Below the pieces are notes generated by a model. That model made no database searches, was not told the origin of the DNA, and saw nothing but the letters and a program-made list of their open reading frames with translations. Both the position numbers and the translations under genes were made by a program. Of a DNA stretch of 19,081 bases, positions 1 through 17,573 are shown piece after piece. Within the stretch, counting starts at the first letter, position 1; each line of letters begins with the position of its first letter. Origin of the DNA: a virus (taxonomy: Duplodnaviria; Heunggongvirae; Uroviricota; Caudoviricetes); the IMG/VR virus record IMGVR_UViG_2711768040_000017. One strand, written 5' to 3'.

Positions 1-2667
1 TCAGCTGATACTGATGCCTGCGGTGGCTTTCTTCATCACCACAACCAGCAAATCGCTGATACTTGCTGTGGGATACCAGTCATTTACCAGCCATGCTGAC
101 ACCGAAAACTCCAGCGTCATGTGGCCGTGACCAGCTGGCATATCAATAACACCACTGTAAATCAGCGTATTATCCAGCGCGGTACGGTTATAAATTTCAG
201 CACCATTTTTCTTCACTATCAGGCGGCATGAGGAGTAAATATCAGTATGCTCTCTCTCATGTTTAGCACCGCTGAATGCCACCGCCGGAATAACAATCTG
301 CCGGTCAAACGGCTGATCGTCATAAATCCTGACGGTAATGGTCCCTGATGGCCACCGCTCCGGTGCCCGGGAGTCCCGCGGGAAAGCCTTACCCACTGTT
401 TTGACAATATCGCCTTCAATCTGGTTGGCTGACAGTTTCCCTTTAATCTGACAGTTCTCATTTATCGTAACGTTGTTGAGCGTCCCGGCGTTCGCATTCA
501 CACTGCCACTGATATCTGCATTTTTAGCGGTCAGCTTTCCGTCCGGTGTCATGGAAAATGCAGGAGGATTACCGCCGCTGGTAATGGTGGGAGCCGTCAG
601 ATATTTCAGGAACACTTCATTCATGAATATCTGATCACCCTGACCAACAAACATCGGTTTTGTGTTGCCATTTGCAGGATTAATCATCGCAATCCTGTCT
701 GCCGCCAGCAGCACCTGACTCTGCATGCCGTCGGGGGTGTTCTCAATACCGGCACCGATACCCGCGATATAAAGGCGTCCGTCCTGCATCTGCTGCAGCT
801 TCACAGCCCACATGCTGTTCAGATTATTATTTGTATCAACCTGAACCTTCTGTATCTGCTGGATCGCTGCACTCTGGTCTTCCAGTTTCTTATTGACGGT
901 CTGTGTGATTTCATTGCTGACATCCGTAATGGACGTCCTGATTTCAGCCAGGTCAGGCGCAAGCTGACCGTTATCAATCTGCGTCCACAGCTCCTGAGCC
1001 AGATGGGTTTTCCCTATCTCGCCTTTGAAAAAATCCAGATAGCCGGATGCGTCATCACTCGGCTGACCAACAGCCTCCACGAATGCCGATTTGCCAACGG
1101 TGTTCACACTGCGAACGTAAAAATAATAATTATGGCCCGGCCTGATATTGATACTGGCGGCTATCCAGTACAGCGCCGTACCAAGATAGCGGGCTGTGGT
1201 TTCAACCTGCCTGATATCCGCAATCCGCTTTTCCGAGAACCAGAACTCAAACTGTACCGTCGGGTCATAAACGGCAAGATGCGGCGTGGCGGTTATCTGA
1301 AAATAGCCCGGCGTCAGCTCAAGCCGCGACGGCACTGCAGGTGCGGCAATCCGGAACGATACCGATGCCGGATCGCCCTGCTGCCCCCACGCATTTACCG
1401 CCCGGACTGTCAGCCTGTAGTTCCCTGGCGCCAGCTGCGTGAAGCGGTATGTGGTTTCCGTCGTCCGGGCCGTGCTGACCAGCCGCTCACTGCCGTCATC
1501 CGCTGCCACGGTCAGGCGAAGCAGGAAGCTCACGCCCTTCACCACCTTCGGCGTGTCCCAGCGCGCCAGCACCTGATATTCCCCGCTGTCTGCGGTGACT
1601 TCGGCGGTCAGGTGCTGCACCGCTGGCGGCGTGACACCATTCACCGTGCCGCTCTGGTCGCCGTCAAAGTGCGCCCCGTTATCCACGATGGCTTCTTTTT
1701 CCGGTACATGCTGCACGGCAGTGATGGCATACGTGCCGTCATCGTTCTCACGGATACTCACACAGCGGAACAGGCGCTGGCGCAGCGTCGGCAGCTTCAG
1801 CCCCCACACACTGTATTCTGCAACGCCGTCAGGAACCCGGTTCACTTTCACCTTAAGTCCGTCGGTGACGGACTGAACCTCCACGCTGACCGGATTACCA
1901 CTTCCGTCAACCAGGCTTATCAGCGTGGTACCGGAGGATGGCAGCGTGATTTCACGGTCGAGCGTCAGCGTCCGGGTCTGGCTGTTCACCGCCAGCACGC
2001 GACCACCGGTGCTGATACCGGCATAGTCATCATCGCAGATTTCAATGACATCCCCCGGTACATGGCGAAGCCCTTCCGCACCCACGCTGAAGTCCACGGT
2101 CTGCGTCTCCAGCAGTTCCGTTTTAATCAGCCACAGCCCGGCGCGGTGTGCCTGCCCCCGGCTGGTACAGCCAAAGGCATCCATCTTCGTGACATTACGA
2201 CCGTAACGGGCAATGGCCTGCGTATCTTCAACAAGCTCTGTCGCCGTCTCCCAGCCGTTGTCCGGGTCAATCCAGTTCACCTCAACGGCATTATGGCGGT
2301 CCTTCAGGGCGCTGAAGCTGTAGCGGAACGGCGCGCCATCATCCGGCATCACCACATTACTGCGGTTATAGGTGATATGTTCTGTCGCTGACCACGTTCG
2401 ACACACCACTCTGATTTTTCTGTTAATACCCGGCGGGCGCCAAAAAAAAGATTTATAGCCTTCATGCCGGGCTAAAAATTTTTCAAATGAATCACGTTCA
2501 TTCGCCTCAACTTTGAAATCACAGGTGAAAACGCGCAGAGAATGATTAAGTCCATTTGGACTTCGTTGCTCATAACCATCGCCAAATCTTACAGTTTTTA
2601 TCGATGGTTTATTTTCTGTTTTCATTCCATCCTCTGGTAACCAGTGAAATTCTTCCGTATTAGCCAC
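1..2667 (-). CDS. J: Chimeric tail-tip ORF: gpM-like N-terminus (~95 aa) fused in frame to the C-terminal ~790 aa of host-specificity protein J (central tail fibre). Probable GTG start overlapping the tape-measure stop.
   Basis: N-terminus ([31 protein letters not shown]) parallels lambda gpM motif for motif. From ..[37 protein letters not shown].. onward it is near-identical, as recalled, to lambda gpJ up to a diverged C-terminal receptor-binding end. Stop codon at 1-3. Confidence 0.8.
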
Positions 2668-5600
2668 TTAACATTCCCCCATCACGTCGCATATTTAACA
2701 GATTGCCCTGCACCCGCTGATCAACCATCCCCATAAGTGCTTTTATTGCCTGAGGGCCAATCTCTCCATTCTGGCCGTCATTTTGAATAGTGATTTGGTA
2801 TACGGGGGCATAGGTAATATCTCCGCCTCCATTACCACTTTTACTATTAATAGCTCTGACACCAAGAGAACCATCGGAAGTTCGTGTTAATGGCATAATG
2901 GCTTCCGGTCCAGCCTCACCAAAAACACCAGCCCCTTTTGCAAAAGCAAAAAATTGCGGGGAATCATAAATACCGTTCGAATACGTGCTCAATGACGGAG
3001 ACTCATAAACACCGCCCTTTGCATTCGGAATAAATTTACTAATAGCACTCCCGATAGTTCCTAAAATCCCCCCAGAAGAACTGTTACTAATGCTGTCGAA
3101 AATCCCAGTAATTGAAGCCTTTAATGCTATTCGACTAAGATCCGAAATCACGGAAGTAGCGAAAGAACGAAAATTTGCCTTGCCTGTCGTGACAAAATCA
3201 CCCAGCGCATCGGTCATCCCATCAAACATCTGAGTCGTGGTTGATTTTATCTGCTCACTGATATCCTTAGTGTCATCCAGCCAGTTATTGAATCCCTGGG
3301 AGGCACCACTAACCCAGTCTCCTGCCTGAATATCGAGCTGCTCGTTTTTCTGTCTGACAATTTCTTTTTCCCGTTCCAGAGCATCATTCAGAGCCTGCAT
3401 TTTCTCTTGAAAAACATGATCTGACATTCCACGGGATTTATCTGCATAGTCACGTTCAAGTTGCAGACGCTGATTGTTATATCCATGTTCAATCCGCAGT
3501 AATTCCTGCTGGCGTTGCTGATTTTTATCGCCAACCCCATAACCAGCAATCTGAATATCATACCCCTGCTGACGATTATCAATCGAAGCCTGCAATGAAT
3601 CACGCCATGCTGTTATTTCGGCGGATTCCTTGATTAGCCTGTTATTTTTTTCAATCGCAACATTTTTCTCCATCAACGTGGTTATTTCTTCCCGGTGTAA
3701 GAGAAGCGATTTCTGATCCTGGGTTAATTTCGATGATGGTCGTGACTCTAGGTCGGCAATCCGCTGACGCCACTTAACCAGTTCCTGTTCAGAGGAACTT
3801 AATTTAACGGTCAACTCAACTTGTGAACTTAGTAACGCATTCTGTTGATTCAGATGATCAATCATTCGTTGGGCTGCATCATCAGAATAATCTTTCGCCT
3901 TTGGTTGCTTTGGATCTTTATAACGCTCATTTATTTGAGCGATAAGATTATTATATTCTTCCTTTGAATACTGATTCTTTAGCTTTTCCAGTTTTGCAAG
4001 TTCACTAGCTCTCTGCTGCTCCCGGGTCTGATATTGTTTTGAAAAGGCATCTGCTCTCTGTCTGAGTTCAATTCCTTCCTGTTGTCGCTTGTTGTAATCG
4101 TTTATTGATGAATTTAGTACGTCCTGAGCAATTTTTTCTGCTTGAAGTACGCCCAATTGCTGCTTTAATCGTGCCAGCCTTTTATTTTGAGCTCCGCCAT
4201 CTCCAATGCCACCTAACCCGAAAACTCCGGATCGGGTATTTTTTTCTATTTCATCAATTTGACGGAGAACATCTGAGATTTTTTGATCAAGGGAGGCCTC
4301 ACGGCCAATATCCAGCATGGAATCCCATGCCCATTTTGCGGAGTCTGCGACAGCTTTCCATGCAGTCTCAAGATAACCAAGATTTTCTTTAATCTGGTTG
4401 GTGCGCTGGATCATTGAGGATGAGTATTCTTCTGTCGCAATGCGGGCGGCCTCCTGCTGGTTCCCTTCATCCTGTAGCGCCTTAATCTGGTTATAAGTCG
4501 CAAGTGTCAGAAAATGGTACTGATCATTAAGTTTTGATATGGCACTGACAGGATCCTTTGCAATTTCATTGAAGTCATTAACCAGTTGTTCGGTTGATAT
4601 TCCTGTTACTTCGCTCGTTTTTACTATCGCTGTCGTCACTTGCTCCAGCGAACTGCTCGCTACCTTTCCCGAACGCACAAGCTGATTTAATACTGCCGCC
4701 GCAGCACCAGTTGTCGAATCAGCCGCATTCCCGGCACGTTGAGCTAAATCGCCCAATTGCCCGCTGGTTGTCCCCAACTGATTTCCGGTAAGAATAAGAG
4801 ATTTATTAAATTCGTCCTGCTCCTGAGAGCCTTTATAGTAAGCCAGTCCTAAGACCCCAACGGCTGCTGCGGCCAGGGTAAAAGGATTAATTAATCCCAG
4901 CACATAAGAACCTACCCCTTTGATCGCCGGGCCAATCCCACCGAACATATCTTTTAGCTGGCCGCCCTGCTGCATTAACACCATAAATGGCGACTGACCA
5001 GTGGACAACCCAACAACAATATCCGTCATTTGTGCAGGCAACATGCGCATAGCAAAAGCCGTTTGTTTTGCCGACATTCCGGTTTTGCTTAATTGTGATT
5101 GAGTAACCTCAAGCTCACTCCGCATAGCACGAAGTTTTCCAGAAAGCTCCTCATACATTTCAGGAGAAAGCATCCCCTTAGCTTTTGCTTCATTGAGCTG
5201 TTTCTGTTGTTCTACCAGACGATTAAAAGCAGTTCCGACAGGATCAAGTTGAGCAATCAGACGTTGCAAAGCAACAACCTGTTCATCATGCGCTTTTGCT
5301 GCTTCTCGCTCTGCCTGAGCCTCTCCGGTAAGCTCTCGCCGTGTTTCCTGTATTTTTCGGCTATAATTCTCAAACTGAGAACCATTTATTTTCCCGGATG
5401 CAAACGCAGCATTAAGTTCATCATGCTGTTGTTCAAGATTTCTTAGCGCCGCAGCCAGAGGGTCGATCTTGTCCAGCATTCTTTGAAAGGCCTGAGCCTG
5501 CGCTTCCTGCTGGGCGGCAGCAAGTTTTCCGGCCTTCTCGGCTTCTCTCTGCGCTTGCGCAACCCCGCTCAATTCCTCTGTGGTTTCATTAAGTTTACGG

Positions 5601-5893
5601 ACAAGAAATTCATATTCTTCTTTATCAATAAGCCCTTTATCGAAAAATTTCTTTAATTCAGAATAGCGTCGACCGACAGTATCAATTGCGGCACCAACTG
5701 GATCAATAGCTGCTTTTAATTTTGCGAGCGCGTTCTTCTCATCTTCTGTTGCCTTAGTCACTTTCCCTGCGCTATTTGCAGCAGTTTCCCCAGCCTGCGT
5801 CATTTTGACTAATGAGGAGGTCAGATTGTCAGCATTATTTTTCGCTCCAGTGCTATCAATAATTATTGCGAGACGCGAGGTTTGCTCTGCCAT
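2660..5893 (-). CDS. Tail tape measure protein (gpH-like), 1077 aa
   Basis: Long coiled-coil-rich N-terminal half with three tandem ~75-aa repeats, a hydrophobic/Gly-rich central segment, and a position directly downstream of the G/GT chaperone pair and upstream of the M/J tail-tip gene. AGGAG Shine-Dalgarno 8-9 nt before the ATG. Confidence 0.9.
5083..5710 (-). repeat. Three diverged tandem coding repeats (~225 bp each) inside the tape measure gene
   Basis: Protein repeats [12 protein letters not shown].., [19 protein letters not shown].., [19 protein letters not shown].. each followed by ..AQAxREAxKA. The DNA shows the repeated ggatcaa/gggtcga cores. Coordinates approximate. Confidence 0.5.
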
Positions 5894-5904
5894 TTATTAA
5901 AACT

Positions 5905-5938
5905 CCTGACAACAAAAAACCCACCGCGAAGTGGGTTT
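5905..5938 (-). terminator. Intrinsic-terminator-like hairpin in the 165-bp gap between the GT chaperone stop and the tape-measure start
   Basis: Minus strand reads aaacccac-ttcgcg-gtgggtttttt-gttgtc: 8-bp stem, 6-nt loop, T-rich tail, immediately upstream of the tape-measure RBS. Confidence 0.4.
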
Positions 5939-6058
5939 CAGGCGACATAATAGTAGATATAGCGATTACGAGGCCACGCAATGCTTTTCTCCAGGAGCAT
6001 CATCGATTTAATTAAAGACACCATCACATCTCTGTAACAGAGTGTACGTAATTAACAA

Positions 6059-6379
6059 CTACACACACTGCTCCTGAAAATACTGGTCATCCAGTGCAAA
6101 GATCACTGCTTCAAATTCATCGCGCTCAATCAATACCGGATGAGTGGCTAAATATTCATTTATCTCTGTCAGAGATAAAGGCAAAGGCACCCCAGCCATT
6201 CCAGCATAACGTCGGGCACGGGATATTACCGAATAGGCGTACAACAACTCCTTAAGCACCGGGTCTATTTCTGGTTCCGGTATCGGTGGCAACCTGAGTT
6301 TTTCTCGCTTCCATCTTGCCTTTTCCCCCCTTTCTCCCCCGAACTCCGATAACCACCGCTGGGCAGCTATGGCTTTTTT
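6059..6379 (-). CDS. T portion of tail assembly chaperone GT, reached by -1 frameshift from G; not independently initiated
   Basis: After slipping at aaaaaag, the -1 frame (gcc ata gct gcc cag cgg ...) runs uninterrupted into the 77-aa ORF frame (ttg cca ccg ata ccg = LPPIPEPEID) and ends 165 bp upstream of the tape measure gene. Confidence 0.55.
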   Translation of the reverse strand, partial: KKAIAAQRWLSEFGGERGEKARWKREKLRLPPIPEPEIDPVLKELLYAYSVISRARRYAGMAGVPLPLSLTEINEYLATHPVLIERDEFEAVIFALDDQYFQEQCV

Positions 6380-6801
6380 ATCGTATCCTGCTTCTGCTGC
6401 TCTTTACCCTGGGCGATGCTGGCTGCTTCTGCAAGGATCTGCCAGTACAACTCTGGATTCTGCTTAAGCAGCGCGATCCCTCGTTCTGCCGTATATTCCA
6501 GTGCAACCTCAACACCATTAACCAGTTCACCAACCCCTTTCCAGTCTTTCAGCAGATAACGAGCGGCATTATCAATGAGTAAATCATCAACAGAATCCAC
6601 CTCGGAAACCTTTGAAATATCAAACTCCTTCGTTCCGACGTGCAAACTGGCATCCATTTTCTCAATGTGGCGACGGATTAATGCATTACGGGAGCGATAC
6701 TGATCGTTATCGCTGCTTGCCACCAACAGTTTTAACCCGTCTATCCAGACTGCATGAGCAATTGATTCATCACGCAGCCGTTCATTCACGGTTTGCATCA
6801 T
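6367..6801 (-). CDS. Tail assembly chaperone (gpG-like), 144 aa
   Basis: Acidic small protein immediately upstream of the tape measure gene; its last codons (ata aaa aag cca tag) contain a canonical slippery heptamer. MMQ start, ATG at 6799-6801. Confidence 0.55.
   Translation of the reverse strand: MMQTVNERLRDESIAHAVWIDGLKLLVASSDNDQYRSRNALIRRHIEKMDASLHVGTKEFDISKVSEVDSVDDLLIDNAARYLLKDWKGVGELVNGVEVALEYTAERGIALLKQNPELYWQILAEAASIAQGKEQQKQDTIKKP
6373..6379 (-). other. Programmed -1 ribosomal frameshift slippery heptamer A_AAA_AAG (G to GT)
   Basis: Plus-strand ctttttt at 6373-6379 is aaaaaag on the minus strand, two codons before the G stop; the -1 frame is open for ~100 further codons. Confidence 0.55.
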
Positions 6802-8188
6802 TGATTTCCATCAACATTACACTCTGATTTTTTAATTCATCGATCACATCCTCTGGACGGGAATCCTGATCGATAAATTTCAACGCCTGCAACACCCGAA
6901 CCGCATCAATCTGACGTATATCACCGCCCTGACGCAATGACTGAACAGCCAGCGCGGAGGATGAGTCAAACACCTGGGCAGATACATCCAGTTCAGTGCG
7001 CACATCCACATTGCCACCGCAACTCTCTCCGCTCCATTCCGCCATTATCTGGAGAATATTATCGAGGGCATCTTCGAGGGAGTTCGCCATTGTATAAAGC
7101 GGCGAGTGTTCCTGCATCCGCTCTTCATTAGTCTGATCAACAGATTTGGTGGATGTATTTTCAGCCCGCAGAAGTTTAGCGCCGGCATGACGCATCTGAT
7201 TTTCCAGCTTCTCAAGTGATGTTTCGCCAGATTCTATCGCTGCGCCACTATGTTCAACATATTCGAGGCCATTTTTTGTTCTGTCCTCAAAAATCGTAGC
7301 CGTGGATGCACCAACCGTCAGTTCTTCATTCCTGTCCAGCCCGTAGGCCACCAGCAATGGAACGCGGGCAACATGAAGAATATTGTCCTGCTCGCTCTGG
7401 CTTTGCCAGTGCTTGATATTCAGCAAGCCAAGATTAAGCAATGGCGGTGTACCACGCATAAACCCTGTTTTCTTCGTATACAGTGTTACCAGAGGAATAT
7501 CATCACGGCTGGTATTCCATGACTCATGAAGCATCCAGACAGATTCGCCATTAGTACCTTCGCTGCGTCGATAAATTTCTACTCGACGGGGCATAATATG
7601 GCGGATCTGCTCCACCTTCTTCTGCCCGAAATCATCACCATCAATAATGATGACCTCTTTTATACGCAAATCAGTGAGAACAACTTTCCCTTTTTCAACT
7701 TTCGATTTCCATCCAATAACCTGGCGTGGATTCAGCATCGTAACGTACGGGCGACCACCGGCCGCGTTTTCATCGGCTTTTGTCCGAATCTCGTTCATAT
7801 CCGTTCGTGGATAGTCCACCAGCGCATGTGCCACACCATACTGAAATGCGAGACTGAAAAATTGCTGCGCCCACACATCCAGTCGGCTCCCCTCCATGTC
7901 GATATTTTCTGCATATTCCCTGATTTTTTCCGGCGTTTCCTCACTCAATACTGTCGGCTCTGCAAATATGCGCCCAATATTTTGTTTGATGCTTTCTTCA
8001 TACACAGGAAGTAACGTAGCCACAGACAGGCGTTTTTTATAAGCGTCTTCATCTTCATTAGGCCATTTGGGGAGATAATTTTCCCCCTGCCTGCGCATTT
8101 CAAGCGTACCGCCCATCAATGCGTCGTTAATATCCCACGCCTCCAGCATATCGTTATAGTCGAGGTTGGGTGTTGATATATCAGCCAT
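6782..8188 (-). CDS. Putative portal protein (468 aa), possibly C-terminally altered
   Basis: Starts 4 nt inside the end of the terminase large subunit gene (coupled), with portal-typical size and position. No specific motif recognised by eye. Its last 6 codons overlap the G chaperone start. Confidence 0.45.
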   Translation of the reverse strand: MADISTPNLDYNDMLEAWDINDALMGGTLEMRRQGENYLPKWPNEDEDAYKKRLSVATLLPVYEESIKQNIGRIFAEPTVLSEETPEKIREYAENIDMEGSRLDVWAQQFFSLAFQYGVAHALVDYPRTDMNEIRTKADENAAGGRPYVTMLNPRQVIGWKSKVEKGKVVLTDLRIKEVIIIDGDDFGQKKVEQIRHIMPRRVEIYRRSEGTNGESVWMLHESWNTSRDDIPLVTLYTKKTGFMRGTPPLLNLGLLNIKHWQSQSEQDNILHVARVPLLVAYGLDRNEELTVGASTATIFEDRTKNGLEYVEHSGAAIESGETSLEKLENQMRHAGAKLLRAENTSTKSVDQTNEERMQEHSPLYTMANSLEDALDNILQIMAEWSGESCGGNVDVRTELDVSAQVFDSSSALAVQSLRQGGDIRQIDAVRVLQALKFIDQDSRPEDVIDELKNQSVMLMEINDANRE

Positions 8189-8190
8189 AA

Positions 8191-9501
8191 TTAAATCCGA
8201 AGTGATGTGACTCTTCCGGTCGGTTTGACAATAGGGAATTGCTTAACGATGAAATAACCTCCGGCATCATTCGGGTGATCATTGCCAGATTTTTTATCAG
8301 GCTCCCCCTTATCATCCCAGACCTGTTGCTCCAGAGATTCGGCATATACCGGACAACGCTTCACATTAACTTTATAGCGACGCTCACCATTGGCATTGCA
8401 GAACATTGCATTCATTGAGTTAACGCGATCTTTTACTGGCGGGTTCGAGCTGTTCACCACAACGTTAAAACCTGCCTGCTTAAGCTGGGCTATATCCGTC
8501 GTACTTGCGTTACTTGATTTTCTGGAATCTCCGGAAGCATCTGGATAAATATAAATCTCCCTCACTTTCCGGTAATCATGCCCGTCATACAGCCAGAAGC
8601 GTTCTTTAATGAGGCGGATCATATCCGGCGTATCGTAGGCATTGATGATTTCAGTTACCGCACATGGAAGCCCCAAACGCAGCACATGGACGATTCCCGC
8701 CATCTTTCCAACGTTAAAATCCATCCCAATATAAATCGGCTCCCCTGGCTGCTCCACTTCTTCGCAATTATTCAGTTTCCGGTCAAACTGATGGTAAACA
8801 GTACCACTTGTCAGGTTAGTAAACCGTCCTAGAAGATAGGCTTTAATCAGCTCTGGAGGGTATGATTCAAGAAGTGAAGGAATGTAATCTGCTGGCAGGT
8901 TCTTTTCATTATCGAAAGTAGATGCCTGCACCAGACCATACAGTGAGGCCAGCTCTGTTTTTTCACGCACGGCTTTAACAAACTGCTCGTAGACAAATTT
9001 GAATCCTTCCGGCGTGGTTGTAACGTCAATACCGTTGCGAAGTCCATCAATCTTATAACGCATACGCGCAATTATCTTGCGCCACGCCGTTCTGGCTTTT
9101 TCCTTCGGCAAAATGTCCAGTTCATCCACCAGCGCATTACCAATTTTGAAACCGACGATCGTTTGTGGCTTCTCCATCGATCTGCAGATAGTGGTTCCCC
9201 GATACTGGCGTCCGTAATAAAAGTGAACCTCTTTATTTCCCTCATTAATTTTTACGTTCAATCCCCAGTCAGCAGCAACTTCTTCCACTGTAGGGTAAAA
9301 AATATCGCGAATTTGGGGATACGTTGGCGCAAAATATCCCTGATTTATACCTGGATGCTCCCAAATCCCCTTGCATATGCCGCCACACCCAACCCATGTT
9401 TTGCCCGAGCCAAAACCAGCAATATAGGCTTTAAATTTATGGGGCATTGAAAGAAATCGCGCCTGAGGCACATTAAGCGTCGGAGAGATCATCTTCATCA
9501 C
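8191..9501 (-). CDS. Terminase large subunit (436 aa)
   Basis: Walker A P-loop YIAGFGSGKTWVG near the N-terminus, acidic nuclease-type C-terminal half, and position between the small subunit and portal. Confidence 0.85.
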   Translation of the reverse strand: MMKMISPTLNVPQARFLSMPHKFKAYIAGFGSGKTWVGCGGICKGIWEHPGINQGYFAPTYPQIRDIFYPTVEEVAADWGLNVKINEGNKEVHFYYGRQYRGTTICRSMEKPQTIVGFKIGNALVDELDILPKEKARTAWRKIIARMRYKIDGLRNGIDVTTTPEGFKFVYEQFVKAVREKTELASLYGLVQASTFDNEKNLPADYIPSLLESYPPELIKAYLLGRFTNLTSGTVYHQFDRKLNNCEEVEQPGEPIYIGMDFNVGKMAGIVHVLRLGLPCAVTEIINAYDTPDMIRLIKERFWLYDGHDYRKVREIYIYPDASGDSRKSSNASTTDIAQLKQAGFNVVVNSSNPPVKDRVNSMNAMFCNANGERRYKVNVKRCPVYAESLEQQVWDDKGEPDKKSGNDHPNDAGGYFIVKQFPIVKPTGRVTSLRI

Positions 9502-10567
9502 TCCTTAATCTGGCATCAACCACATTAATATTGATCGCCACAGGCTGGGGATGTTCATTATCCTCCACCGTTTCGATCTCTTTGCGCAGCTTCTGGTTCT
9601 CTATTCTGCGCCGTTCAATTTCCAGTTCCTGTAGCCGCTTATCTGCACATAATGCCCCGCCAGCAGAAAGCAAACGCAACAATTCACGCCGGGCGGCAGC
9701 CTTATCCTCCAGCAGGATCTCAACACCGTATTTTCCGAGCTTTGACCCTGCATATAATTGCCGCGCATCCCCATCAAGCAGTGTGGTATCAGCCATATAA
9801 AGCTGTCCTGTTCCCTCACCGCAGCACTTCGGGCAATCAGGATTGGGTATGGCGTTATCAACAAAGCCGAGGCCTCCATATTCCGGCTCGGGTTTACCAT
9901 CTCTGGAGGCCTGTGCCGCAGCCTTATCGAATTCTGCAATATCACGCCACTGGTAGAGATGATTCTCGCCCCAGCAATAACGGCAGTTAACACGGCGAAA
10001 TTGTGCCAACTGATTGGGGTCGGCCTGGACAATGGCCATCAACTGGCTCACCAGTAAATCCAGGTCTGCGGTATAGCGTTTCTGGTACTGATTGCGGAAG
10101 TAGCTGATAGCACGATAAACCCTGGCATTTCTAAGCATACGGCTGGCGTTGCTGTTAGCTGTCGCACCTTGCCCCTCATAACCAGCCAGTCGGTATGCCT
10201 CTGTCGGCTTTTTCCCCTGAGCAACCAACATGGCGAATTTTGCCTGCTGGTCAGAAATACCGAATTCATCGGGGCAGAACGAAATTTCTTCCGTGTCCCC
10301 CTCAATCAGGAGTGCATCGGATACAGCCTTTTTTTTCTGAGATTTTCCGTTCTGCCTTTGCGCAGTCTGCGCAGTTTTTTTTCGCGCACTTTTTTGCGCA
10401 GTTTTGCGCATTTCTTTCTGCGCATTTTTCGGAGTTTTTTTGATGTAACGACGGGCTGTTGCGTAGTTCAGTCCCCTTGCTTCACACCATGCCACCGGAG
10501 ATATACCGGAGCGGGTGTATTCAGCAATATACTCCTGCTGCAACGCCCCCCAGTCCGGTCTGCTCAT
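9473..10567 (-). CDS. Putative terminase small subunit / DNA-packaging DNA-binding protein (364 aa)
   Basis: N-terminal HTH-like segment (..ISPVAWCEARGLNYATARRYIKK..), Lys/Arg-rich low-complexity linker, Cys cluster (CRYCWGENH .. CPKCCGEG), coiled-coil C-terminus; immediately precedes and overlaps the terminase large subunit gene. Confidence 0.45.
   Translation of the reverse strand: MSRPDWGALQQEYIAEYTRSGISPVAWCEARGLNYATARRYIKKTPKNAQKEMRKTAQKSARKKTAQTAQRQNGKSQKKKAVSDALLIEGDTEEISFCPDEFGISDQQAKFAMLVAQGKKPTEAYRLAGYEGQGATANSNASRMLRNARVYRAISYFRNQYQKRYTADLDLLVSQLMAIVQADPNQLAQFRRVNCRYCWGENHLYQWRDIAEFDKAAAQASRDGKPEPEYGGLGFVDNAIPNPDCPKCCGEGTGQLYMADTTLLDGDARQLYAGSKLGKYGVEILLEDKAAARRELLRLLSAGGALCADKRLQELEIERRRIENQKLRKEIETVEDNEHPQPVAININVVDARLRSDEDDLSDA
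10355..10430 (-). repeat. Cluster of six T(T/C)(T/C)GCGCA repeats within the terminase small subunit gene
   Basis: Plus strand carries tttgcgcag, tctgcgcag, ttcgcgcac, tttgcgcag, tttgcgcat, tctgcgcat within ~70 bp flanked by T-runs; it encodes the basic KTAQK/SARKK/TAQTAQRQ linker. Confidence 0.5.
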
Positions 10568-10570
10568 CAG

Positions 10571-10822
10571 TTAGTCCTGATTTTTATCCACCCTGAGTAG
10601 TTCGCGCAGAGCAAAGGCATCCCCTTTTCTGGCAAGCTTAAACAATGCCGCTCGTAACTCGGCTTCACCTTTCGCTCTGCCCTTACGGATGGCCGCATAA
10701 AAATCTGTCATTGCTTCCCGATTTTCTTTCAGTCGGTTCAGATCAACATCCAGAACGTCAGCGATTTGTTGTGCAGTCATCCGGCACGCTGCCAGAGACT
10801 CGACTTTCGAATACGGAATCAT
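10571..10822 (-). CDS. Small hypothetical protein (83 aa) with an HTH-like segment
   Basis: GGGGGTGA Shine-Dalgarno 4 nt before the ATG at 10822; MTAQQIADVLDVDLNRL resembles a helix-turn-helix. Overlaps the upstream gene end by 65 nt. Confidence 0.3.
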   Translation of the reverse strand: MIPYSKVESLAACRMTAQQIADVLDVDLNRLKENREAMTDFYAAIRKGRAKGEAELRAALFKLARKGDAFALRELLRVDKNQD

Positions 10823-11714
10823 TTGTCACCCCCATTGATATGCAGGGTGTCTTCTTCCTGTATTTTTCGTGAAGGATTTTTACTGCAGCGTTGTTCCAGG
10901 TGACCTGATGGTGAATGCGTTTATGGCTGGCACCCATCAGTGAGATTTTTACGCACGACGGCGAATACATGACGGAGTAAAAACTTTTAACGTAGGTTCC
11001 GGAATCCAGATACAGCTCGGTCATTCCGCCGCTGTTTTTCTGCGTCTGTTTCTGCCCTAACTGGACAGCACCGATCGTCATAAACAATTCACCACAGCGA
11101 CCGAGATTCGTGTACGTATTCACATCCTCGTTAATGCGCCCCATGAATGAGAACGGTCGATCAACCGAACAGATAAAGCTGTTCATTGCCTTGCGTTTCA
11201 CCCACGAAGCATGGCCGCCATTGTCACCAAGAAAATCCCCGCCCTGCGACATAGCGATGGAAAGCGCGGGTATTGATTCGTAATACGCCAGCATTTCAGA
11301 AAGGATCGCATCCAGTTTCCTTATCGGGAAATAGGCCTGGTCATAGTTGCGATCCACCCGAAACTGGAACTCGTGATAATCATCATCGAGCTGAATGAAG
11401 TATTTACACCCGACCAGTTTTGCCAGGTCGAAACAGGCATTACGGGCGTAAAAAATTGAGCGGCGATCACCAAAATTATCGGCTTCGTCAAAACGACTGG
11501 CAATATCGGCTTTGGAAAATACCAGCACCTGTTCACCAAATTCAGCCATGTACTGATGCCGTGTCTTATCTTCATCATCAACAACGATAAAAATTTTCCC
11601 GGTATAGCCAGCACGACGCAACGTCCGGTAAGTCAGAACTTTGTCCGGTCGCCCGTGAGTCAGAATAAAGGCGCAAAAATCATCACGCATATTCCTCCTC
11701 CTCCTCCCCGCCAT
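10758..11714 (-). CDS. Hypothetical protein (318 aa) with DXD-type acidic motifs; possible nucleotide-sugar transferase-like fold
   Basis: Hydrophobic strand then Gly (CAFILTHGRPDK), then IFIVVDDEDK and YFIQLDDDYHEF; translationally overlaps the ParB-like gene upstream. Assignment is by motif only. Confidence 0.3.
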   Translation of the reverse strand: MAGRRRRNMRDDFCAFILTHGRPDKVLTYRTLRRAGYTGKIFIVVDDEDKTRHQYMAEFGEQVLVFSKADIASRFDEADNFGDRRSIFYARNACFDLAKLVGCKYFIQLDDDYHEFQFRVDRNYDQAYFPIRKLDAILSEMLAYYESIPALSIAMSQGGDFLGDNGGHASWVKRKAMNSFICSVDRPFSFMGRINEDVNTYTNLGRCGELFMTIGAVQLGQKQTQKNSGGMTELYLDSGTYVKSFYSVMYSPSCVKISLMGASHKRIHHQVTWNNAAVKILHEKYRKKTPCISMGVTNDSVFESRVSGSVPDDCTTNR

Positions 11715-12477
11715 GCATGATCTCCACCATGCGCTGCGTCATTCGGACAAATCCATTTTCAATAGCCTGCTGATAATCAATGATCACCAGCGCCGACTCC
11801 TCGAAAAGGCACTGAATTTCAGCGGGGGCATGAGCGTAATAGTCCGCAATTCTGCTGAAATTAAACACTGTGTGACGTTCTGCCGCACACAGGAGGAATT
11901 TCTCAATATCAGGATCAAGGGACGCCGAACGTATCCGGCTGATCAGCTCCTGAGTTTTCGTATCGTCGTACAGTTCACTGATATCCGGTTTACCGCCCGA
12001 CGGCTCATAAACAGGCGTATCAATTTTCGTCGTATACGGCTCCTCCTCATTTCCTGTACCGGGCAAAACATCCGTCAACAGTTCATCAATTTCTGTCGGG
12101 ATGAAGCCTGTCAGGGAGACATCAAAATCAGCATTGATTAGGTCCGACAGCTCCATCCGCAACAGATCTTCATCCCAGCCAGCATTCATCGGCAGGCGAT
12201 TATCTGCCAGGCGGTACGCCTTTTTCTGCTCATCCGTCAGGCCAGACAGAACAATGACCGGAACAGAATCCATTTTGAGCATTTCAGCCGCCATAACACG
12301 ACCGTGACCCGCAATAATTTCGCCCTTTTCGTCAATCAGCACCGGATTAGTCCAGCCGAATTGCTTAATACTTTCTACCAGTTGTGCCACCTGCTCAGGG
12401 CTGTGCGTCCTGGCGTTGTGCGCATACGGTGACAATTCTTGTAATGGGCGATAGACTATCTTTAATTTCTCGCTCAT
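11683..12477 (-). CDS. ParB-like nuclease domain protein (264 aa)
   Basis: N-terminal ParB/sulfiredoxin-type motif ..NPVLIDEKGEIIAGHGRVMAA.. and acidic C-terminus (GGEEEEEYA). Confidence 0.7.
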   Translation of the reverse strand: MSEKLKIVYRPLQELSPYAHNARTHSPEQVAQLVESIKQFGWTNPVLIDEKGEIIAGHGRVMAAEMLKMDSVPVIVLSGLTDEQKKAYRLADNRLPMNAGWDEDLLRMELSDLINADFDVSLTGFIPTEIDELLTDVLPGTGNEEEPYTTKIDTPVYEPSGGKPDISELYDDTKTQELISRIRSASLDPDIEKFLLCAAERHTVFNFSRIADYYAHAPAEIQCLFEESALVIIDYQQAIENGFVRMTQRMVEIMHGGEEEEEYA

Positions 12478-12504
12478 ACAGCCTTGCTTTATGAATAAAA
12501 CGCA

Positions 12505-12528
12505 CCCCAGCAGCCAGTGCTACTGGGG
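12505..12528 (-). terminator. Possible terminator hairpin downstream of trkG
   Basis: ccccag / ctgggg inverted repeat followed on the minus strand by tgcgttttatt; large loop, so weak. Confidence 0.25.
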
Positions 12529-12614
12529 ACGGAGGGGTTGCTGGTAAAGTTAGGTATTGGATCAATGAGTGAGTCAACATAATATTAAACTCACAATTAT
12601 AAATCAGCCATATA

Positions 12615-14090
12615 TTAGGAGCGCCAAAAAAAACCTGAAAACAATATAATAACAGGATAAATTTCAAGGCGACCAAGAATCATAGCTATGCACATTAAAC
12701 ATTTTGCAATGTCATTAAGCACTCCGAATGACGATGCAGTAGCCCCAAAACCTAATCCCATATTATTAATACATGCAGCCACTGTTGCAAATGATGTAAG
12801 AAAATCATATCCCATACCATTTAACACCAGTATAAAAAACACCGTGAAGAGAGTATAAAGAAAAAAGAAACTCCATACAGACCTCATTACACGATCTGTA
12901 ACTATCTTCCCTCCTACATTTACACTCAACAACGCTCTGGGATGAGAAAGCTGATTTATCTCGTGTTTGCTTTGTTTGAAAAGTATAAGAAATCGAAGTG
13001 ACTTAATTCCACCACAAGTTGAACCTATACATCCCCCAAAGAAACTTGACAACAGCAAAAACACTATCGTGTGCGTGGGCCAACTTGCATAATCCTGCGT
13101 AGCTAAACCATTATCAGTGAGCATGGAGCTGGCAAGAAAAAACGAATGAATAAAACTTCCATGCAAGTCATACATACCTATATGCCAGACCTGGAAAGAG
13201 GTAACAATGATCACCCCTAAGGCTATTAACAGAAAGAAACGAAGTTCAATATCTCTGATTAAAGGTTTTATCGTTTTCCTGCTAATAACAATATACCAAA
13301 GAGTGAAGTTGAAAGCCGATAGCAGGGAAAAAGAACCAGCCACCAGCTCAACCAAATAGTTATTAAAATATCCGATACTCTCGCTATGAGTTGAGAAACC
13401 ACCAAGCGAAACTGTGGAAATCCCGTGACAAATAGCATCAAACAAAGGCATTCCTGCAAGTCTATAACAGACAATACAAGCAATACCTAATAAAGAATAA
13501 GTTATCCACAGTGTCCGTGACGTATCGGCCAGGCGGGGAGTGAGTTTGTCATCCTTAAATGGCCCCGGCATTTCTGACTGATAAAGCTTTGCACCACCAA
13601 TACCCAATAATGGCAATACAGCAACCGCCAGAACAATAACTCCTAAACCACCTATAAAATTTAACTGTGACCGATAGTACAAATATGCCCGAGGTAATGA
13701 ACTAACATCATCAATTACAGTTGCTCCTGTTGTTGTTATTCCAGAAACCCCTTCAAACAGAGCATCAATGAACGTTAAATTAAGTTCTGAGTCAATCCAT
13801 AAAGGGAATGCACTAATAACAGAAAACAAAATCCAAAACATTACAATTATAATAAACCCATCACGGGTACGTAATTGAATGCCAGATTTCTTAGTTGTAT
13901 ACCACGCTCCGCCACCAATGCAAAAAAATATAACGAAAGTTATAAAGAAAACGAACAGGCTTTTTTCTTTATAAAACAATGCTACAACCATTGGTGGCAA
14001 CATTGAAAGACTATAGAGCCAAACCAGGAACCCACACATATGAGTAACAACTCTTACATGAGATGTATTCATATCTAAATATTCTTTCAA
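12615..14090 (-). CDS. trkG: Potassium uptake protein TrkG (Trk-system membrane subunit); true start probably the internal MNTSHVRV at 14072
   Basis: Polytopic membrane protein with repeated pore-loop glycine motifs; translation matches E. coli TrkG as recalled (MNTSHVRVVTHMCGFLVWLYSL..). Markedly AT-rich relative to flanking phage genes. Confidence 0.85.
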   Translation of the reverse strand: MKEYLDMNTSHVRVVTHMCGFLVWLYSLSMLPPMVVALFYKEKSLFVFFITFVIFFCIGGGAWYTTKKSGIQLRTRDGFIIIVMFWILFSVISAFPLWIDSELNLTFIDALFEGVSGITTTGATVIDDVSSLPRAYLYYRSQLNFIGGLGVIVLAVAVLPLLGIGGAKLYQSEMPGPFKDDKLTPRLADTSRTLWITYSLLGIACIVCYRLAGMPLFDAICHGISTVSLGGFSTHSESIGYFNNYLVELVAGSFSLLSAFNFTLWYIVISRKTIKPLIRDIELRFFLLIALGVIIVTSFQVWHIGMYDLHGSFIHSFFLASSMLTDNGLATQDYASWPTHTIVFLLLSSFFGGCIGSTCGGIKSLRFLILFKQSKHEINQLSHPRALLSVNVGGKIVTDRVMRSVWSFFFLYTLFTVFFILVLNGMGYDFLTSFATVAACINNMGLGFGATASSFGVLNDIAKCLMCIAMILGRLEIYPVIILFSGFFWRS

Positions 14091-14209
14091 TTATAACCAC
14101 CTTGCTGCAATATTATGATTATACTGTATAAAATTTAACTCCTCTTAGATCTTACTTCACTGTTCCTTATGAAACAATCATCAAAATGAATCATATTGTA
14201 GTTAAGATT

Positions 14210-14674
14210 TTACTTTAAACACTGCTCGGTTATGTATTGCTGAGCACCTTCAAGTTGGGCCTGCATCATTACCAGTCGTTCCCGGAGGGTGAAATAATCC
14301 CGTTCAGCGGTGTCTGCCAGTCGGGGGGAGGCTGCATTATCCACGCCGGAGGCGGTGGTGGCTTCACGCACTGACTGACAGACTGCTTTGATGTGCAACC
14401 GACGACGACCAGCGGCAACATCATCACGCAGAACATCATTTTCAGCTTTCGCATCAGCTAACTCCTTCGTGTATTTTGCATCGAGCGCAGCAACATCACG
14501 CTGACGCATCTGCATGTCAGTAATTGCCGCGTTCGCCAGCTTCAGTTCTCTGGCATTTTTGTCGCGCTGTTCTTTGTAGGCGATGGCGTTATCACGGTAA
14601 TGATTAACACCCCATGACAGGCAGACGACGATGCAGATAACCAGAGCGGAGATAATCGCGGTTACTCTGTTCAT
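14210..14674 (-). CDS. Rz: Spanin inner-membrane subunit Rz (i-spanin)
   Basis: Near-identical to lambda Rz as recalled (..[74 protein letters not shown]..). ATG at 14672-14674 overlaps the R stop in an ATGA arrangement. Confidence 0.9.
14269..14454 (-). CDS. Rz1: Spanin outer-membrane lipoprotein subunit Rz1 (o-spanin), embedded in Rz in the +1 frame
   Basis: [18 protein letters not shown] lipobox then Pro-rich [27 protein letters not shown], matching lambda Rz1 as recalled. Confidence 0.85.
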
Positions 14675-15168
14675 TGCTGACCCCACAAACAGATTTCACG
14701 CTCAATCTCACGACGAGTCATGAGACCTTTCCATTGCTTACCGCCAGCATATGTCCAGCGACGTAGCTGATCACATGCGCCTTTGATATCGCCCTGGTTT
14801 ATTTTGCGAAGAAGCGTCGATGTTCTGAAATTGCCAGCACCCACGTTGTAAACGAATGAGTAAAGAGCGCCGCGCGTTGTTTCCGGTATATCGACTTTGA
14901 TGTACGGGTTAATTTGTCTGGCGACCGTGGCAAGGTCTTTATTCAAGAGTGTTTTGCATTCTGCTTTGGTATACGTTTTACCGAGCATGATGTCTTTTCC
15001 TGTATGCCCGTGACATACAGTCCATACACCAACAATATCTTTGTATGGTATGTAGCTGACACCTTCCAGACCATCGTTACCACTTGGGCCAGTGATTAAC
15101 ACTGATGCTATAGCAATTGCTCCGCCACCAATAGCAGCAGCAACGACTTTTCGTAATGATGGAGGCAT
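14671..15168 (-). CDS. R: SAR endolysin (phage-21 R-type lysozyme), 165 aa
   Basis: N-terminal signal-anchor-release segment [23 protein letters not shown] followed by a T4-lysozyme-like domain (..EG..Y.D..G..T.G.GHT..); start ATG overlaps the holin stop (TAATG). Confidence 0.9.
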
Positions 15169-15383
15169 TATTCACCTCTCGCAGCCTTGCGCTTATCTTC
15201 TTTAATCTTGAAATAAAGGTTTGTCAGGTACGTCAGCAGGCCAAATACCAGACTACCCAGCACACCGATTGCAGCCCACTGTGACGGAGTTACTCTATCG
15301 AGCAACTGTAAAAACCAGTAGCCAGCACTGCCTGCGGAGGTGCCGTAGGCAATGCCTGTTGAAATTTTGTCCATGGATTTCAT
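15168..15383 (-). CDS. S: Pinholin / antiholin with dual-start motif (phage-21 S-type), 71 aa from MKSMDK; holin from the internal MDK
   Basis: [58 protein letters not shown] matches S21 as recalled; GGAGG Shine-Dalgarno 6 nt before the ATG at 15381-15383. The track's longer N-terminal extension starts at GTG and is unlikely. Confidence 0.85.
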
Positions 15384-15483
15384 AGCCTCACCTCCGCACG
15401 GAACGGATGGCATAGTTATTATGTGTAGGCTTTCAGACACATCAATCAGAGCCTTAATTGATATATATGCTGGAGACGATGCA

Positions 15484-15509
15484 ATATAAAAAGCTCGCCG
15501 TAGCGAGCT
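15484..15509 (-). terminator. Intrinsic terminator between the downstream lipoprotein gene and the holin gene
   Basis: Minus strand reads agctcgc-tacg-gcgagct followed by ttttatatt: 7-bp GC-rich stem, 4-nt loop, U-tract. Confidence 0.5.
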
Positions 15510-16609: not shown

Positions 16610-16638
16610 TTTTCCTCACATATGTCATATAGTAAAGG

Positions 16639-17572: not shown

Positions 17573-17573
17573 A

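What the first reader, a model, noticed from the sequence alone, without database searches (positions are those of the whole stretch)
6782..6801. No head or tail-tube genes: portal-like gene abuts the tail chaperone
Downstream of terminase and the portal-like ORF one expects protease/scaffold, major capsid, head-tail joining and major tail tube genes before G/GT. Here the 468-aa ORF stop overlaps the G start by 20 bp and nothing resembling these genes exists anywhere in the window. Together with the M::J fusion this indicates a second internal deletion, unless the head module lies elsewhere in the genome. The C-terminus of the portal-like ORF may be a deletion-generated tail rather than native sequence.
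Basis: inference. Interest (0 to 1): 0.5.

Follow-up and report, generated by a model that had tools for sequence, protein, structure and literature searches.

The report
Head-gene deletion in Rac-type prophage
An E. coli Rac-type prophage has lost a 6,058-bp block that carried its capsid, connector and tail-tube genes, and the loss fused the first 20 codons of a minor head gene in frame to a truncated tail-chaperone gene; this is ordinary prophage decay.

Summary

**Identity.** The window is a Rac-type lambdoid prophage of E. coli. It is 99.99% identical to strain 101EVA.

**The deletion.** The intact prophage of strain PEC1012 differs by 2 mismatches over 12.3 kb to the left of the junction. 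Against it, 6,058 bp are missing between window 6742 and 6743, with a 2-nt TA microhomology at the join.

**What was lost.**
- codons 21-371 of a Mu-F-like minor head gene
- the scaffold, the major capsid protein and a 58-aa ORF
- three connector genes, the tail terminator and the tail tube
- the first 25 codons of the G-like tail assembly chaperone (ydaY)

- The portal is intact. It is the same protein as in undeleted prophages, so its C-terminus is native.
- The start codon that overlaps the portal stop (6782-6801) belongs to the deleted minor head gene, not to G.
- The 144-aa ORF is an in-frame chimera: 20 aa from the head gene plus residues 26-149 of the chaperone.

**Frequency.** This junction occurs in 2 of 5,426 complete E. 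coli genomes and in one metagenome contig. About 714 genomes keep the native arrangement.

**Side observation.** An independent deletion in strains AHB21 and AF44 ends at the same TA. The K-12 deletion ends 25 nt away.

The parts
6782..8188 (-). Portal gene (DUF4055 type, 468 aa), intact, with a native C-terminus
   Evidence: PF13264, E = 7e-45. phrog_145 portal, E = 1e-164, covering residues 1-467. Same protein accession WP_000763708.1 in the undeleted prophage of PEC1012 and in the deleted 101EVA and GPEC1405. 68.8% identical to the HK639 portal.
6782..6801 (-). The flagged overlap: the portal stop codon (6784..6782) against the start codons ATG ATG (6801..6796) of the minor head gene. This is the native gene junction, not the deletion scar.
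   Evidence: The same overlap is present in the intact prophage L001, where the portal ends at 15519 and the minor head gene starts at 15500/15503. Sequence.
6742..6801 (-). Stub of the Mu-F/SPP1-gp7-like minor head (head morphogenesis) gene: codons 1-20, MMQTVNERLRDESIAHAVWI
   Evidence: phrog_241 (head morphogenesis) matches residues 1-25 of the 144-aa ORF. This stretch lies at the end of the left alignment block, window 19081..6742 = L001 3220..15559 (99.98%), and the stub corresponds to L001 15500..15559. tblastn of the intact 371-aa protein hits 6801..6715.
6742..6743 (-). Deletion junction. The TA dinucleotide is shared by both parental sequences (2-nt microhomology). 6,058 bp are missing here.
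   Evidence: Window 19081..6742 aligns to L001 3220..15559 and window 6743..2363 aligns to L001 21616..25995. The three-way alignment shows left GTCTGGATA|TCCCGC, right CCTGTA|GACGGG and window GTCTGGATAGACGGG.
6367..6741 (-). 5'-truncated tail assembly chaperone gene (lambda-G-like; RefSeq 'ydaY'): native codons 26-149 plus the stop codon
   Evidence: phrog_313 tail assembly chaperone, E = 1.6e-40. The native ORF in L001 is 149 aa from the ATG at 21543 and scores 158 bits against 140 for the chimera. tblastn gives native residues 25-149 at 99.2%.
6367..6801 (-). Chimeric 144-aa ORF: minor head residues 1-20 fused in frame to chaperone residues 26-149
   Evidence: Continuous ORF. The frame was computed from the breakpoints: L001 15559 is the 60th nt of the head gene, and L001 21618 is the first base of chaperone codon 26.
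6373..6379 (-). Slippery heptamer A AAA AAG, in the zero frame, at the 3' end of the chaperone gene (G/GT-type -1 frameshift site)
   Evidence: Read from the sequence. The -1 frame is open from here to 6059. The conceptual frameshift product matches phrog_313 over profile positions 22-246 of 258.
6059..6373 (-). T-like extension in the -1 frame (contains the 77-aa ORF 6059..6292)
   Evidence: phrog_1189, and a weak match to Phage_TAC_18.
2660..5893 (-). Tape measure protein (1077 aa), intact
   Evidence: TMP_2, TMP_4 and Tape_meas_lam_C domains; phrog_24.
8191..9501 (-). Terminase large subunit, intact
   Evidence: Terminase_6N and Terminase_6C. Same accession WP_000625347.1 as in PEC1012.
9473..10567 (-). 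Terminase small subunit, intact
   Evidence: Terminase_2 and phrog_51.
1..2667 (-). M::J fusion: the second, separate deletion of about 3.2 kb, which removes the end of M, all of L, K and I, and the start of J. The junction lies near 2373..2363.
   Evidence: Window 6743..2363 aligns to L001 ..25995 and window 2373..1998 aligns to L001 29184... Phage_min_tail on residues 5-96 followed by J domains.

Best explanation
The window is the late region of a Rac-type lambdoid prophage of E. coli. In the near-identical genome it sits at ttcA next to intR.

A single illegitimate-recombination event joined nt 60 of the Mu-F-like minor head gene to codon 26 of the G-like tail assembly chaperone gene, across a 2-nt TA microhomology. 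It removed 6,058 bp:
- the rest of the minor head gene
- the scaffold, the major capsid protein and a 58-aa ORF
- head-tail adaptor Ad1, head closure Hc1 and Neck1
- the tail terminator and the tail tube
- the first 25 codons of the chaperone

The join happens to be in frame. It leaves a 144-aa hybrid ORF that uses the head gene's start codon, which overlaps the portal stop.

The terminase subunits, portal, chaperone frameshift site, T extension and tape measure are untouched. The likeliest reason is that the event is recent, not that they are still needed.

Together with the M::J deletion, the prophage can make neither capsids nor tails. It is a decaying prophage.

**Shown:** the breakpoints, the deleted content, the intact portal, and the rarity and shared ancestry of the allele.
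**Inferred:** the recombination mechanism, the loss of particle production, and the absence of function for the hybrid protein.
For: - **Breakpoints.** Two collinear alignment blocks to the undeleted prophage of PEC1012 have 2 mismatches in 12,340 bp and 2 mismatches plus 1 gap in 4,381 bp. They abut with a 2-nt overlap and a 6,058-bp offset.
- **Deleted content.** The deleted interval in PEC1012 encodes Phage_Mu_F/phrog_241, DUF6651/phrog_206 scaffold, P22-coat-like/phrog_283 capsid, Ad1, Hc1, Neck1, the terminator and Phage_tube_2.
- **Remnants.** Both cut genes leave remnants in the window, and nothing else of the module remains.
- **Gene order in relatives.** The same order is found in ON470595 and in phage HK639.
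- **Frequency.** The native tube-chaperone junction is present in 713-714 of 5,426 complete E. coli genomes. The window's junction is present in only 2, 101EVA and GPEC1405, and in one metagenome contig that is 100% identical over 6.9 kb. 101EVA and the metagenome contig align collinearly across both junctions; GPEC1405 aligns without a break across both junctions, and its annotation shows the truncated M and J fragments. This points to one recent common ancestor.
- **Context.** In 101EVA the order is ttcA, intR, xisR, ralR, recT, recE, kilR, sieB, a cargo island, then the window.
Against: - No experiment shows that the undeleted relatives form particles. The ON4706xx records are PHASTER predictions.
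- I could not check whether the host genome carries another prophage that could supply heads and tails in trans.
- A second, independent deletion (AHB21/AF44) ends at the same TA, and the K-12 deletion ends 25 nt away. The right breakpoint may therefore not be a random site.
- The in-frame fusion and the intact flanking genes are compatible with selection, although recency explains them just as well.
Confidence: 0.93

Rival explanations
1. Native architecture. This phage type normally places the chaperone directly after the portal and encodes its head and tube genes elsewhere.
For: Only the adjacency itself.
Against: - The 20-codon stub of the minor head gene and the missing 25 N-terminal chaperone codons are scars of a deletion.
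- 713-714 genomes have the native tube-chaperone junction, against 2 with this junction.
- HK639 has the canonical order.
Confidence: 0.01
2. Assembly artefact: the 6-kb segment was collapsed during assembly.
For: None specific.
Against: - An identical junction is found in two complete genomes from different countries and hosts (a human in Singapore, a chicken in the USA) and in an independent gut metagenome contig.
- No repeat flanks the junction that could cause a collapse; only a 2-nt microhomology is shared.
Confidence: 0.01
3. Retained by selection. The head-less, tube-less element is kept as a domesticated or satellite-like unit that uses a helper phage's capsid and tail, or the hybrid chaperone together with the tape measure has a host function.
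For: - TerS, TerL, portal, the T extension and the tape measure are all intact, and the fusion is in frame.
- Independent Rac deletions in K-12 and AHB21 also keep the chaperone-tape-measure region from almost the same point.
Against: - The flanks differ from an undeleted prophage by about 0.02-0.07%, so there has been no time for neutral decay. Intactness is therefore uninformative.
- The allele is very rare (2 of 5,426 genomes).
- An in-frame join has a 1 in 3 chance.
- K-12 goes on to truncate the tape measure, which argues against selection on that module.
- No satellite hallmark was found.
Confidence: 0.04
4. Hotspot-driven deletion. The right breakpoint is a preferred breakage site, namely the loop of a small DNA hairpin in the 5' part of the chaperone gene. 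The event would then be hairpin or palindrome cleavage followed by end joining, not random illegitimate recombination. This changes the mechanism, not the outcome.
For: - The AHB21/AF44 deletion joins TerL to the chaperone at the same TA(G). It lies in a prophage sublineage with 36 mismatches in 4,382 bp relative to the window, so it is independent.
- The K-12 right breakpoint is 25 nt downstream.
- The TA lies in the tetraloop of the predicted hairpin AACCTG-TAGA-CGGGTT; the 90-nt fold has z = -2.67.
- The window's left breakpoint is the centre of the perfect palindrome GGATATCC, and the AHB21 left breakpoint lies in the near-palindrome GGATATAGCC (read from the sequence).
Against: - The pattern was noticed post hoc.
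- Short palindromes are common.
- A metagenome scan for further left partners at this TA found none.
- A fourth allele, in O78 strain 3, ends elsewhere, in the tube gene.
- The repeat finder reported nothing in this region.
Confidence: 0.2

Closest known systems
Rac defective prophage of E. coli K-12 (trkG-ynaK-ydaY-ynaA/tmpR region)
   Same: It is the same prophage family. In the near-identical genome 101EVA it sits at the same chromosomal site (ttcA/intR). It shares trkG and the same chaperone and tape-measure genes at 99.9% identity. Its head module is also deleted, with the right breakpoint inside the same chaperone gene 25 nt from this one.
   Different: The K-12 left breakpoint is in the ParB-like gene (ynaK), so K-12 has also lost the glycosyltransferase, terS, terL and portal. 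K-12 further truncates the tape measure and lacks M to J. Here the terminase, portal and full tape measure survive, and the junction is an in-frame head-gene::chaperone fusion.
Undeleted Rac-type prophages (e.g. E. coli PEC1012, ON470595) and phage HK639
   Same: Gene order and sequence match on both sides of the junction. PEC1012 is 99.93-99.98% identical. The HK639 portal is 68.8% identical, and HK639 has the same order from terS to the tail genes.
   Different: They carry the 6,058-bp head-connector-tube block, a 149-aa chaperone with its own ATG, and separate M, L, K, I and J genes.
Lambda gpG/gpGT tail assembly chaperone with programmed -1 frameshift
   Same: The gene sits immediately upstream of the tape measure gene. 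It has an A AAA AAG slippery heptamer in the zero frame just before the stop codon. The -1 frame is open for 104 further codons. The family match improves when the two frames are joined.
   Different: There is no detectable Pfam match for the G part. The first 25 residues are replaced by 20 residues of a head protein. The tube protein that gpGT would recruit is absent. Frameshifting was not tested experimentally.
Head-module deletions in other Rac-type prophages (AHB21/AF44; O78 strain 3)
   Same: These are independent losses of the capsid block by illegitimate recombination. AHB21/AF44 share the same right breakpoint to within 0-1 nt.
   Different: The left breakpoints are in terL (AHB21/AF44) or in the portal (O78 strain 3). 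O78 strain 3 ends in the tube gene.

Membership tests
Rac-type lambdoid prophage of E. coli | Integrated at ttcA beside intR/xisR, with ralR, recT, recE, kilR and sieB on the left arm | tested here: met
   These genes are not inside the window. They are seen in strain 101EVA, which matches the whole window with 2 mismatches in 19,081 bp.
Rac-type lambdoid prophage of E. coli | trkG cargo gene followed by ParB-like ynaK and the chaperone ydaY, at high nucleotide identity to K-12 Rac | tested here: met
   trkG at 12615..14090. K-12 aligns at 99.7% (window 14654..12224) and 99.9% (window 6718..4959).
Phage portal protein (DUF4055 / phrog_145) | Full-length match to the family profile and a length conserved with portals of related phages | tested here: met
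   Residues 1-467 on profile positions 7-481 of 493, E = 1e-164. The HK639 portal gene encodes 466 aa.
Phage portal protein (DUF4055 / phrog_145) | Dodecameric ring at a capsid vertex | not testable with these tools
   No structure prediction was run. It is irrelevant here because the capsid gene is absent.
Lambda G/GT-type tail assembly chaperone | Located directly upstream of the tape measure gene | tested here: met
   6801..6367 and 6373..6059, followed by the tape measure gene at 5893..2660.
Lambda G/GT-type tail assembly chaperone | X XXY YYZ slippery site near the 3' end and an open -1 frame giving a longer fusion product | tested here: met
   A AAA AAG at 6379..6373. The -1 frame is open to 6059. 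The fusion product covers phrog_313 positions 22-246 of 258.
Lambda G/GT-type tail assembly chaperone | Complete native N-terminus | tested here: not met
   Native residues 1-25 (MFILNQKIIIGGERWFTPMKDLKPV) are missing and are replaced by 20 residues of the minor head protein.
Lambda G/GT-type tail assembly chaperone | Frameshifting occurs, and the product binds the tape measure and the tube protein | not testable with these tools
   This needs expression and binding experiments. The tube gene is deleted.
Mu F / SPP1 gp7-like minor head protein | Phage_Mu_F domain (residues 154-274 of the intact 371-aa protein) | tested here: not met
   Only codons 1-20 remain. The domain lies in the deleted segment.
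Phage satellite (PICI-like) lacking its own capsid genes as its native state | The head-less gene order is the conserved, common state of the lineage | tested here: not met
   2 genomes have this junction, against 713-714 with the full module. The flanks are 99.93-99.98% identical to an undeleted prophage.

The most novel reading that the evidence does not exclude
The 5' end of the tail-chaperone gene of Rac-type prophages is a recurrent deletion endpoint. Two independent deletions, with left ends in the minor head gene and in terL, end at the same TA. This TA lies in the loop of a predicted DNA hairpin, and both left breakpoints lie in short palindromes. The K-12 deletion ends 25 nt away. This would point to cleavage at hairpin or palindrome tips followed by end joining as a directed route of prophage decay, or alternatively to selection for keeping the chaperone-tape-measure block.
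Probability: 0.2. Interest if true: 0.35.

Novelty: new member of a known kind. Interest (0 to 1): 0.12.

Why it matters
The practical value is for annotation.
- The portal here is complete.
- The ORF read as G is a head-gene::chaperone hybrid.
- The E. coli gene ydaY is a tail assembly chaperone. RefSeq calls it 30 codons too short in intact prophages, because the K-12 reference copy is itself a deletion remnant.

The case also gives a dated, nucleotide-resolved example of early prophage decay: two structural deletions while all other late genes are still intact. It adds one more allele to a small series of independent head-module losses in Rac. Nothing here changes current understanding of phage biology.

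Tried and rejected
- **Metagenome scan for other left partners.** I scanned metagenome contigs for other sequences joined at the same TA, using the pattern HTAGACGGG... It returned two native copies with a G-to-A SNP and one contig of the window type, so it gave no further support for a hotspot.
- **GTDB genome scan.** Only native copies were found, in Shigella flexneri and Escherichia ruysiae.
- **Repeats.** The repeat finder on L001 21500-21750 reported nothing.
- **Promoters and terminators.** The scan of the tube-chaperone region was uninformative: only a terminator-like hairpin upstream of the tape measure gene.
- **Ideas tested by eye on the sequence and dropped.**
  - A Pin/Hin-type crossover pseudo-site: the left half, TTAAAACC, resembles hix, but the right half is at the wrong spacing.
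  - A Chi-like GTTGGTGG 15 nt to the right of the breakpoint: it is on the wrong side for RecBCD to protect the retained DNA.
  - IS-mediated adjacent deletion: there is no IS at the junction, and the IS3 in AHB21/AF44 lies 330 nt away, inserted separately in terL.
- **AHB21 allele derived from the window allele.** Rejected, because the two prophage sublineages differ by 0.84% in the tail region while the window differs from an undeleted prophage by about 0.07% in the same region.
- **Not done.**
  - I did not check whether 101EVA carries a compatible head module in another prophage. The tool returns at most 50 kb per call, and the search output cannot be filtered by accession.
  - I did not list the other 6 genomes with a partial match to the 110-nt chaperone 5' region.

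Full report
**1. What the window is.** All real genes lie on the minus strand. In transcription order they are:
- DUF1367, DUF1364 and a Q-like DUF1133 gene
- two TolA-C-like ORFs
- holin, lysozyme and Rz
- trkG
- a ParB-like protein and a TET-associated glycosyltransferase
- an 83-aa ORF
- terS and terL
- a 468-aa DUF4055 portal
- a 144-aa ORF and a 77-aa ORF
- a 1077-aa tape measure protein
- an 888-aa M::J fusion

The whole window matches E. coli strain 101EVA with 2 mismatches in 19,081 bp. In that genome the region is the late arm of a prophage at ttcA-intR-xisR-ralR-recT-recE-kilR-sieB, which is the Rac locus. K-12 Rac aligns at 99.7-99.9% wherever it still has the sequence.

**2. Checking the observation.** The portal stop (TGA, 6784..6782) and the ATG of the next ORF (6801) overlap by 20 nt, as stated. 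Profile scans of the large minus-strand ORFs between the ParB-like gene and the M::J fusion found no scaffold, capsid, connector, terminator or tube gene. A tblastn of the corresponding proteins of an intact relative against all six frames of the window found none either.

The PHROG scan already suggested that the 144-aa ORF is not simply G. Its residues 1-25 match phrog_241 (head morphogenesis). The rest matches phrog_313 (tail assembly chaperone), but only from profile position 21 onward.

**3. The intact relative and the breakpoints.** A search of 5,426 complete E. coli genomes with window 8300..5800 showed that most related prophages match only as far as window 6742. They resume at a second place in the genome.

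In strain PEC1012 (locus L001) the gene order is:
- portal (same protein accession, WP_000763708.1)
- a 371-aa minor head protein
- DUF6651
- a P22-coat-like capsid protein
- a 58-aa ORF
- four small ORFs
- the tail tube
- ydaY, a small ORF, the tape measure, then M, L, K, I and J

Profile scans name the intervening genes:
- Phage_Mu_F / head morphogenesis
- scaffold
- major head protein
- adaptor Ad1
- head closure Hc1
- Neck1
- tail terminator
- Phage_tube_2

Window 19081..6742 aligns to L001 3220..15559 with 2 mismatches. Window 6743..2363 aligns to L001 21616..25995 with 2 mismatches and 1 gap. The two blocks overlap by 2 nt and are offset by 6,058 bp. At the junction the sequences read:
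- left parent: GTCTGGATA|TCCCGC
- right parent: CCTGTA|GACGGG
- window: GTCTGGATAGACGGG

So a TA microhomology sits at window 6743..6742.

**4. What the junction does to the genes.**
- **Left breakpoint.** It falls after the 60th nt of the minor head gene, counted from the first ATG at L001 15500. Codons 1-20 (MMQTVNERLRDESIAHAVWI) remain.
- **Right breakpoint.** It lies inside the chaperone gene.
- **Native start of the chaperone.** The native ORF runs from an ATG at L001 21543, with GAGG 6 nt upstream, and encodes 149 aa beginning MFILNQK.... The ON470595 record annotates it at this length. It scores 158 bits on phrog_313 against 140 for the window's ORF.
- **Frame.** L001 21618 is the first base of codon 26, so the join is in frame. 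The 144-aa ORF is head(1-20) plus chaperone(26-149).
- **The flagged overlap.** The start codon overlapping the portal stop is therefore the native portal/minor-head gene overlap, which is identical in undeleted prophages. It is not a deletion scar and not the start of G.
- **The portal.** It is complete: the same accession in deleted and undeleted prophages, an end-to-end profile match, and the same length as the HK639 portal.

**5. The chaperone is of the G/GT type.** The zero frame ends ...ATA AAA AAG CCA TAG. The heptamer A AAA AAG (6379..6373) is a canonical -1 slippery site in the correct frame (established knowledge of X XXY YYZ sites; sequence). The -1 frame is open from there to 6059 and contains the 77-aa ORF. 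The conceptual fusion covers phrog_313 positions 22-246 of 258 and raises the score to 156 bits.

**6. How common the allele is, and how old.**
- The native tube-chaperone junction is present in 713 of 5,426 genomes (700-nt query) and in 714 (110-nt query).
- The window's junction is present in 2 genomes: 101EVA (human, Singapore) and GPEC1405 (chicken, USA).
- It is also present in one gut metagenome contig that is 100% identical to window 9250..2319.
- 101EVA and the metagenome contig align collinearly across both junctions. GPEC1405 aligns without a break across both junctions, and its annotation shows the truncated M and J fragments.
- The flanks are 99.93-99.98% identical to an undeleted prophage.

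The event is therefore recent and arose once. The intact state of terS, terL, portal, T and the tape measure is explained by lack of time and is no evidence of function.

**7. Relatives with the canonical order.** ON470595 and the nine other ON4706xx/ON032529 records share the order. The ON4706xx records are PHASTER-predicted prophages, not isolated virions. HK639 is the closest record in the phages collection that is not such a prediction; I recall it as a lambdoid coliphage isolated as a viable phage, which is my own recollection and was not checked here. Its portal is 68.8% identical. Its order is terS, terL, portal, head morphogenesis, a hypothetical ORF in the scaffold position, major head, a small ORF, Ad1, Hc1, Neck1, terminator, major tail protein, then the tape measure region.

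**8. Mechanism and consequences.** These points are inferred.
- A 2-nt microhomology with no flanking repeat indicates illegitimate recombination, either end joining or replication slippage.
- Without scaffold, capsid, connectors, terminator and tube, the prophage cannot build heads or tails. It also lacks L, K, I and the N-terminal part of J because of the second deletion of about 3.2 kb.
- The hybrid ORF may still be translated from the head gene's start. Its partners, the tube protein and a complete tail tip, are missing.

**9. Rivals.**
- **Native architecture and assembly artefact.** Both are excluded by points 3 and 6.
- **Domesticated or satellite-like reading.** It cannot be formally excluded. 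It has no positive support beyond intact genes in a very young allele.
- **Hotspot variant of the mechanism.** This is discussed in point 10.

**10. Recurrent endpoint (unexplained).** I saw four independent head-module deletions:

| Allele | Left end | Right end |
|---|---|---|
| This window | minor head gene | chaperone, L001 21616-18 |
| AHB21/AF44 | terL, L001 13811 | chaperone, L001 21616-18; TAG microhomology |
| K-12 | ParB-like gene, L001 10077 | chaperone, L001 21641 |
| O78 strain 3 | portal | tube gene |

- The AHB21/AF44 prophage has 36 mismatches in 4,382 bp relative to the window in the tail region, so that event is independent.
- The first two alleles share the right breakpoint to within 0-1 nt, and the third lies 25 nt away.
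- The TA lies in the loop of a predicted hairpin, AACCTG-TAGA-CGGGTT; the 90-nt DNA fold has z = -2.67.
- The window's left breakpoint is the centre of the palindrome GGATATCC. The AHB21 left breakpoint lies in GGATATAGCC.
- This was noticed post hoc. A metagenome scan added no further partners. I leave it as a lead.

**11. Verdict.** The feature is a previously undescribed but ordinary deletion allele of a well-known defective prophage family. Interest is low.

Noticed in passing
window 6367..6726 (-); L001 21543..21992: RefSeq annotates 'protein YdaY' as 119 aa from a TTG (window 6726), even in undeleted prophages. The native ORF is 149 aa from an ATG with a good Shine-Dalgarno sequence, 90 nt upstream. 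K-12 YdaY is itself a 5'-truncated tail assembly chaperone whose ATG comes, out of frame, from ynaK (ParB-like) sequence at the K-12 deletion junction. The K-12 remnant appears to have become the annotation template.
   Followed up: yes
window 11683..12477 (-): An intact 264-aa ParB-like ORF is annotated in 101EVA, PEC1012 and GPEC1405 as 'ynaK pseudogene, missing C-terminus' (258 nt only). In AHB21 the same gene is called as a 263-aa protein. This is probably the same K-12 template bias.
   Followed up: partly
L001 21616-21641 (window 6743..6718); L005/L006 9001-9004; L003 9001: Three independent Rac deletions (this window, AHB21/AF44 and K-12) have right breakpoints within 26 nt of each other in the 5' part of the chaperone gene. 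Two are at the same TA, which lies in the loop of a predicted DNA hairpin, and their left breakpoints lie in short palindromes. This may be a deletion hotspot.
   Followed up: partly
window 10758..11714 (-) and 11683..12477 (-): A TET-associated glycosyltransferase (PF20691, E = 6e-35; RefSeq 'GREB1-related protein') lies directly downstream of the ParB-like gene and upstream of terS. This may be a DNA-modification module of the phage. No TET/JBP gene was seen in the window.
   Followed up: no
window 1..2667 (-), junction near 2373..2363: The M::J fusion is a separate deletion of about 3.2 kb relative to PEC1012. It removes the 3' end of M, all of L, K and I, and the 5' part of J, across a short microhomology (ACCTATA). 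101EVA and the metagenome contig align across it as well as across the head deletion; GPEC1405 aligns without a break across it too, and its annotation shows the truncated M and J fragments.
   Followed up: partly
window 12615..14090, 15635..16030, 16181..16609 (-); L008 15661..22973: The prophage carries cargo genes: trkG between the lysis genes and the ParB-like gene, and two TolA-C-terminal-like ORFs between Q and the holin. Just outside the window, in 101EVA, a roughly 7-kb island sits between the replication genes and DUF1367. It encodes a BCCT transporter, DUF2254, a LysR regulator, gamma-glutamylcyclotransferase, an MFS transporter and DUF1971.
   Followed up: no
L007 3439..5272 (GPEC1405); L005/L006 7506..8668: IS3-family insertions mark further decay in sister alleles. 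One sits in the lysozyme gene rrrD of GPEC1405. Another sits in terL of AHB21/AF44, and in AHB21 it is accompanied by an adjacent deletion.
   Followed up: no
phage records ON470581-ON470616: These GenBank 'Escherichia phage vB_EcoS-...' records are PHASTER-predicted prophage regions from clinical isolates (bioRxiv 10.1101/2022.06.29.498070). They are not sequenced virions, so their presence in a phage collection is not evidence of viability.
   Followed up: yes
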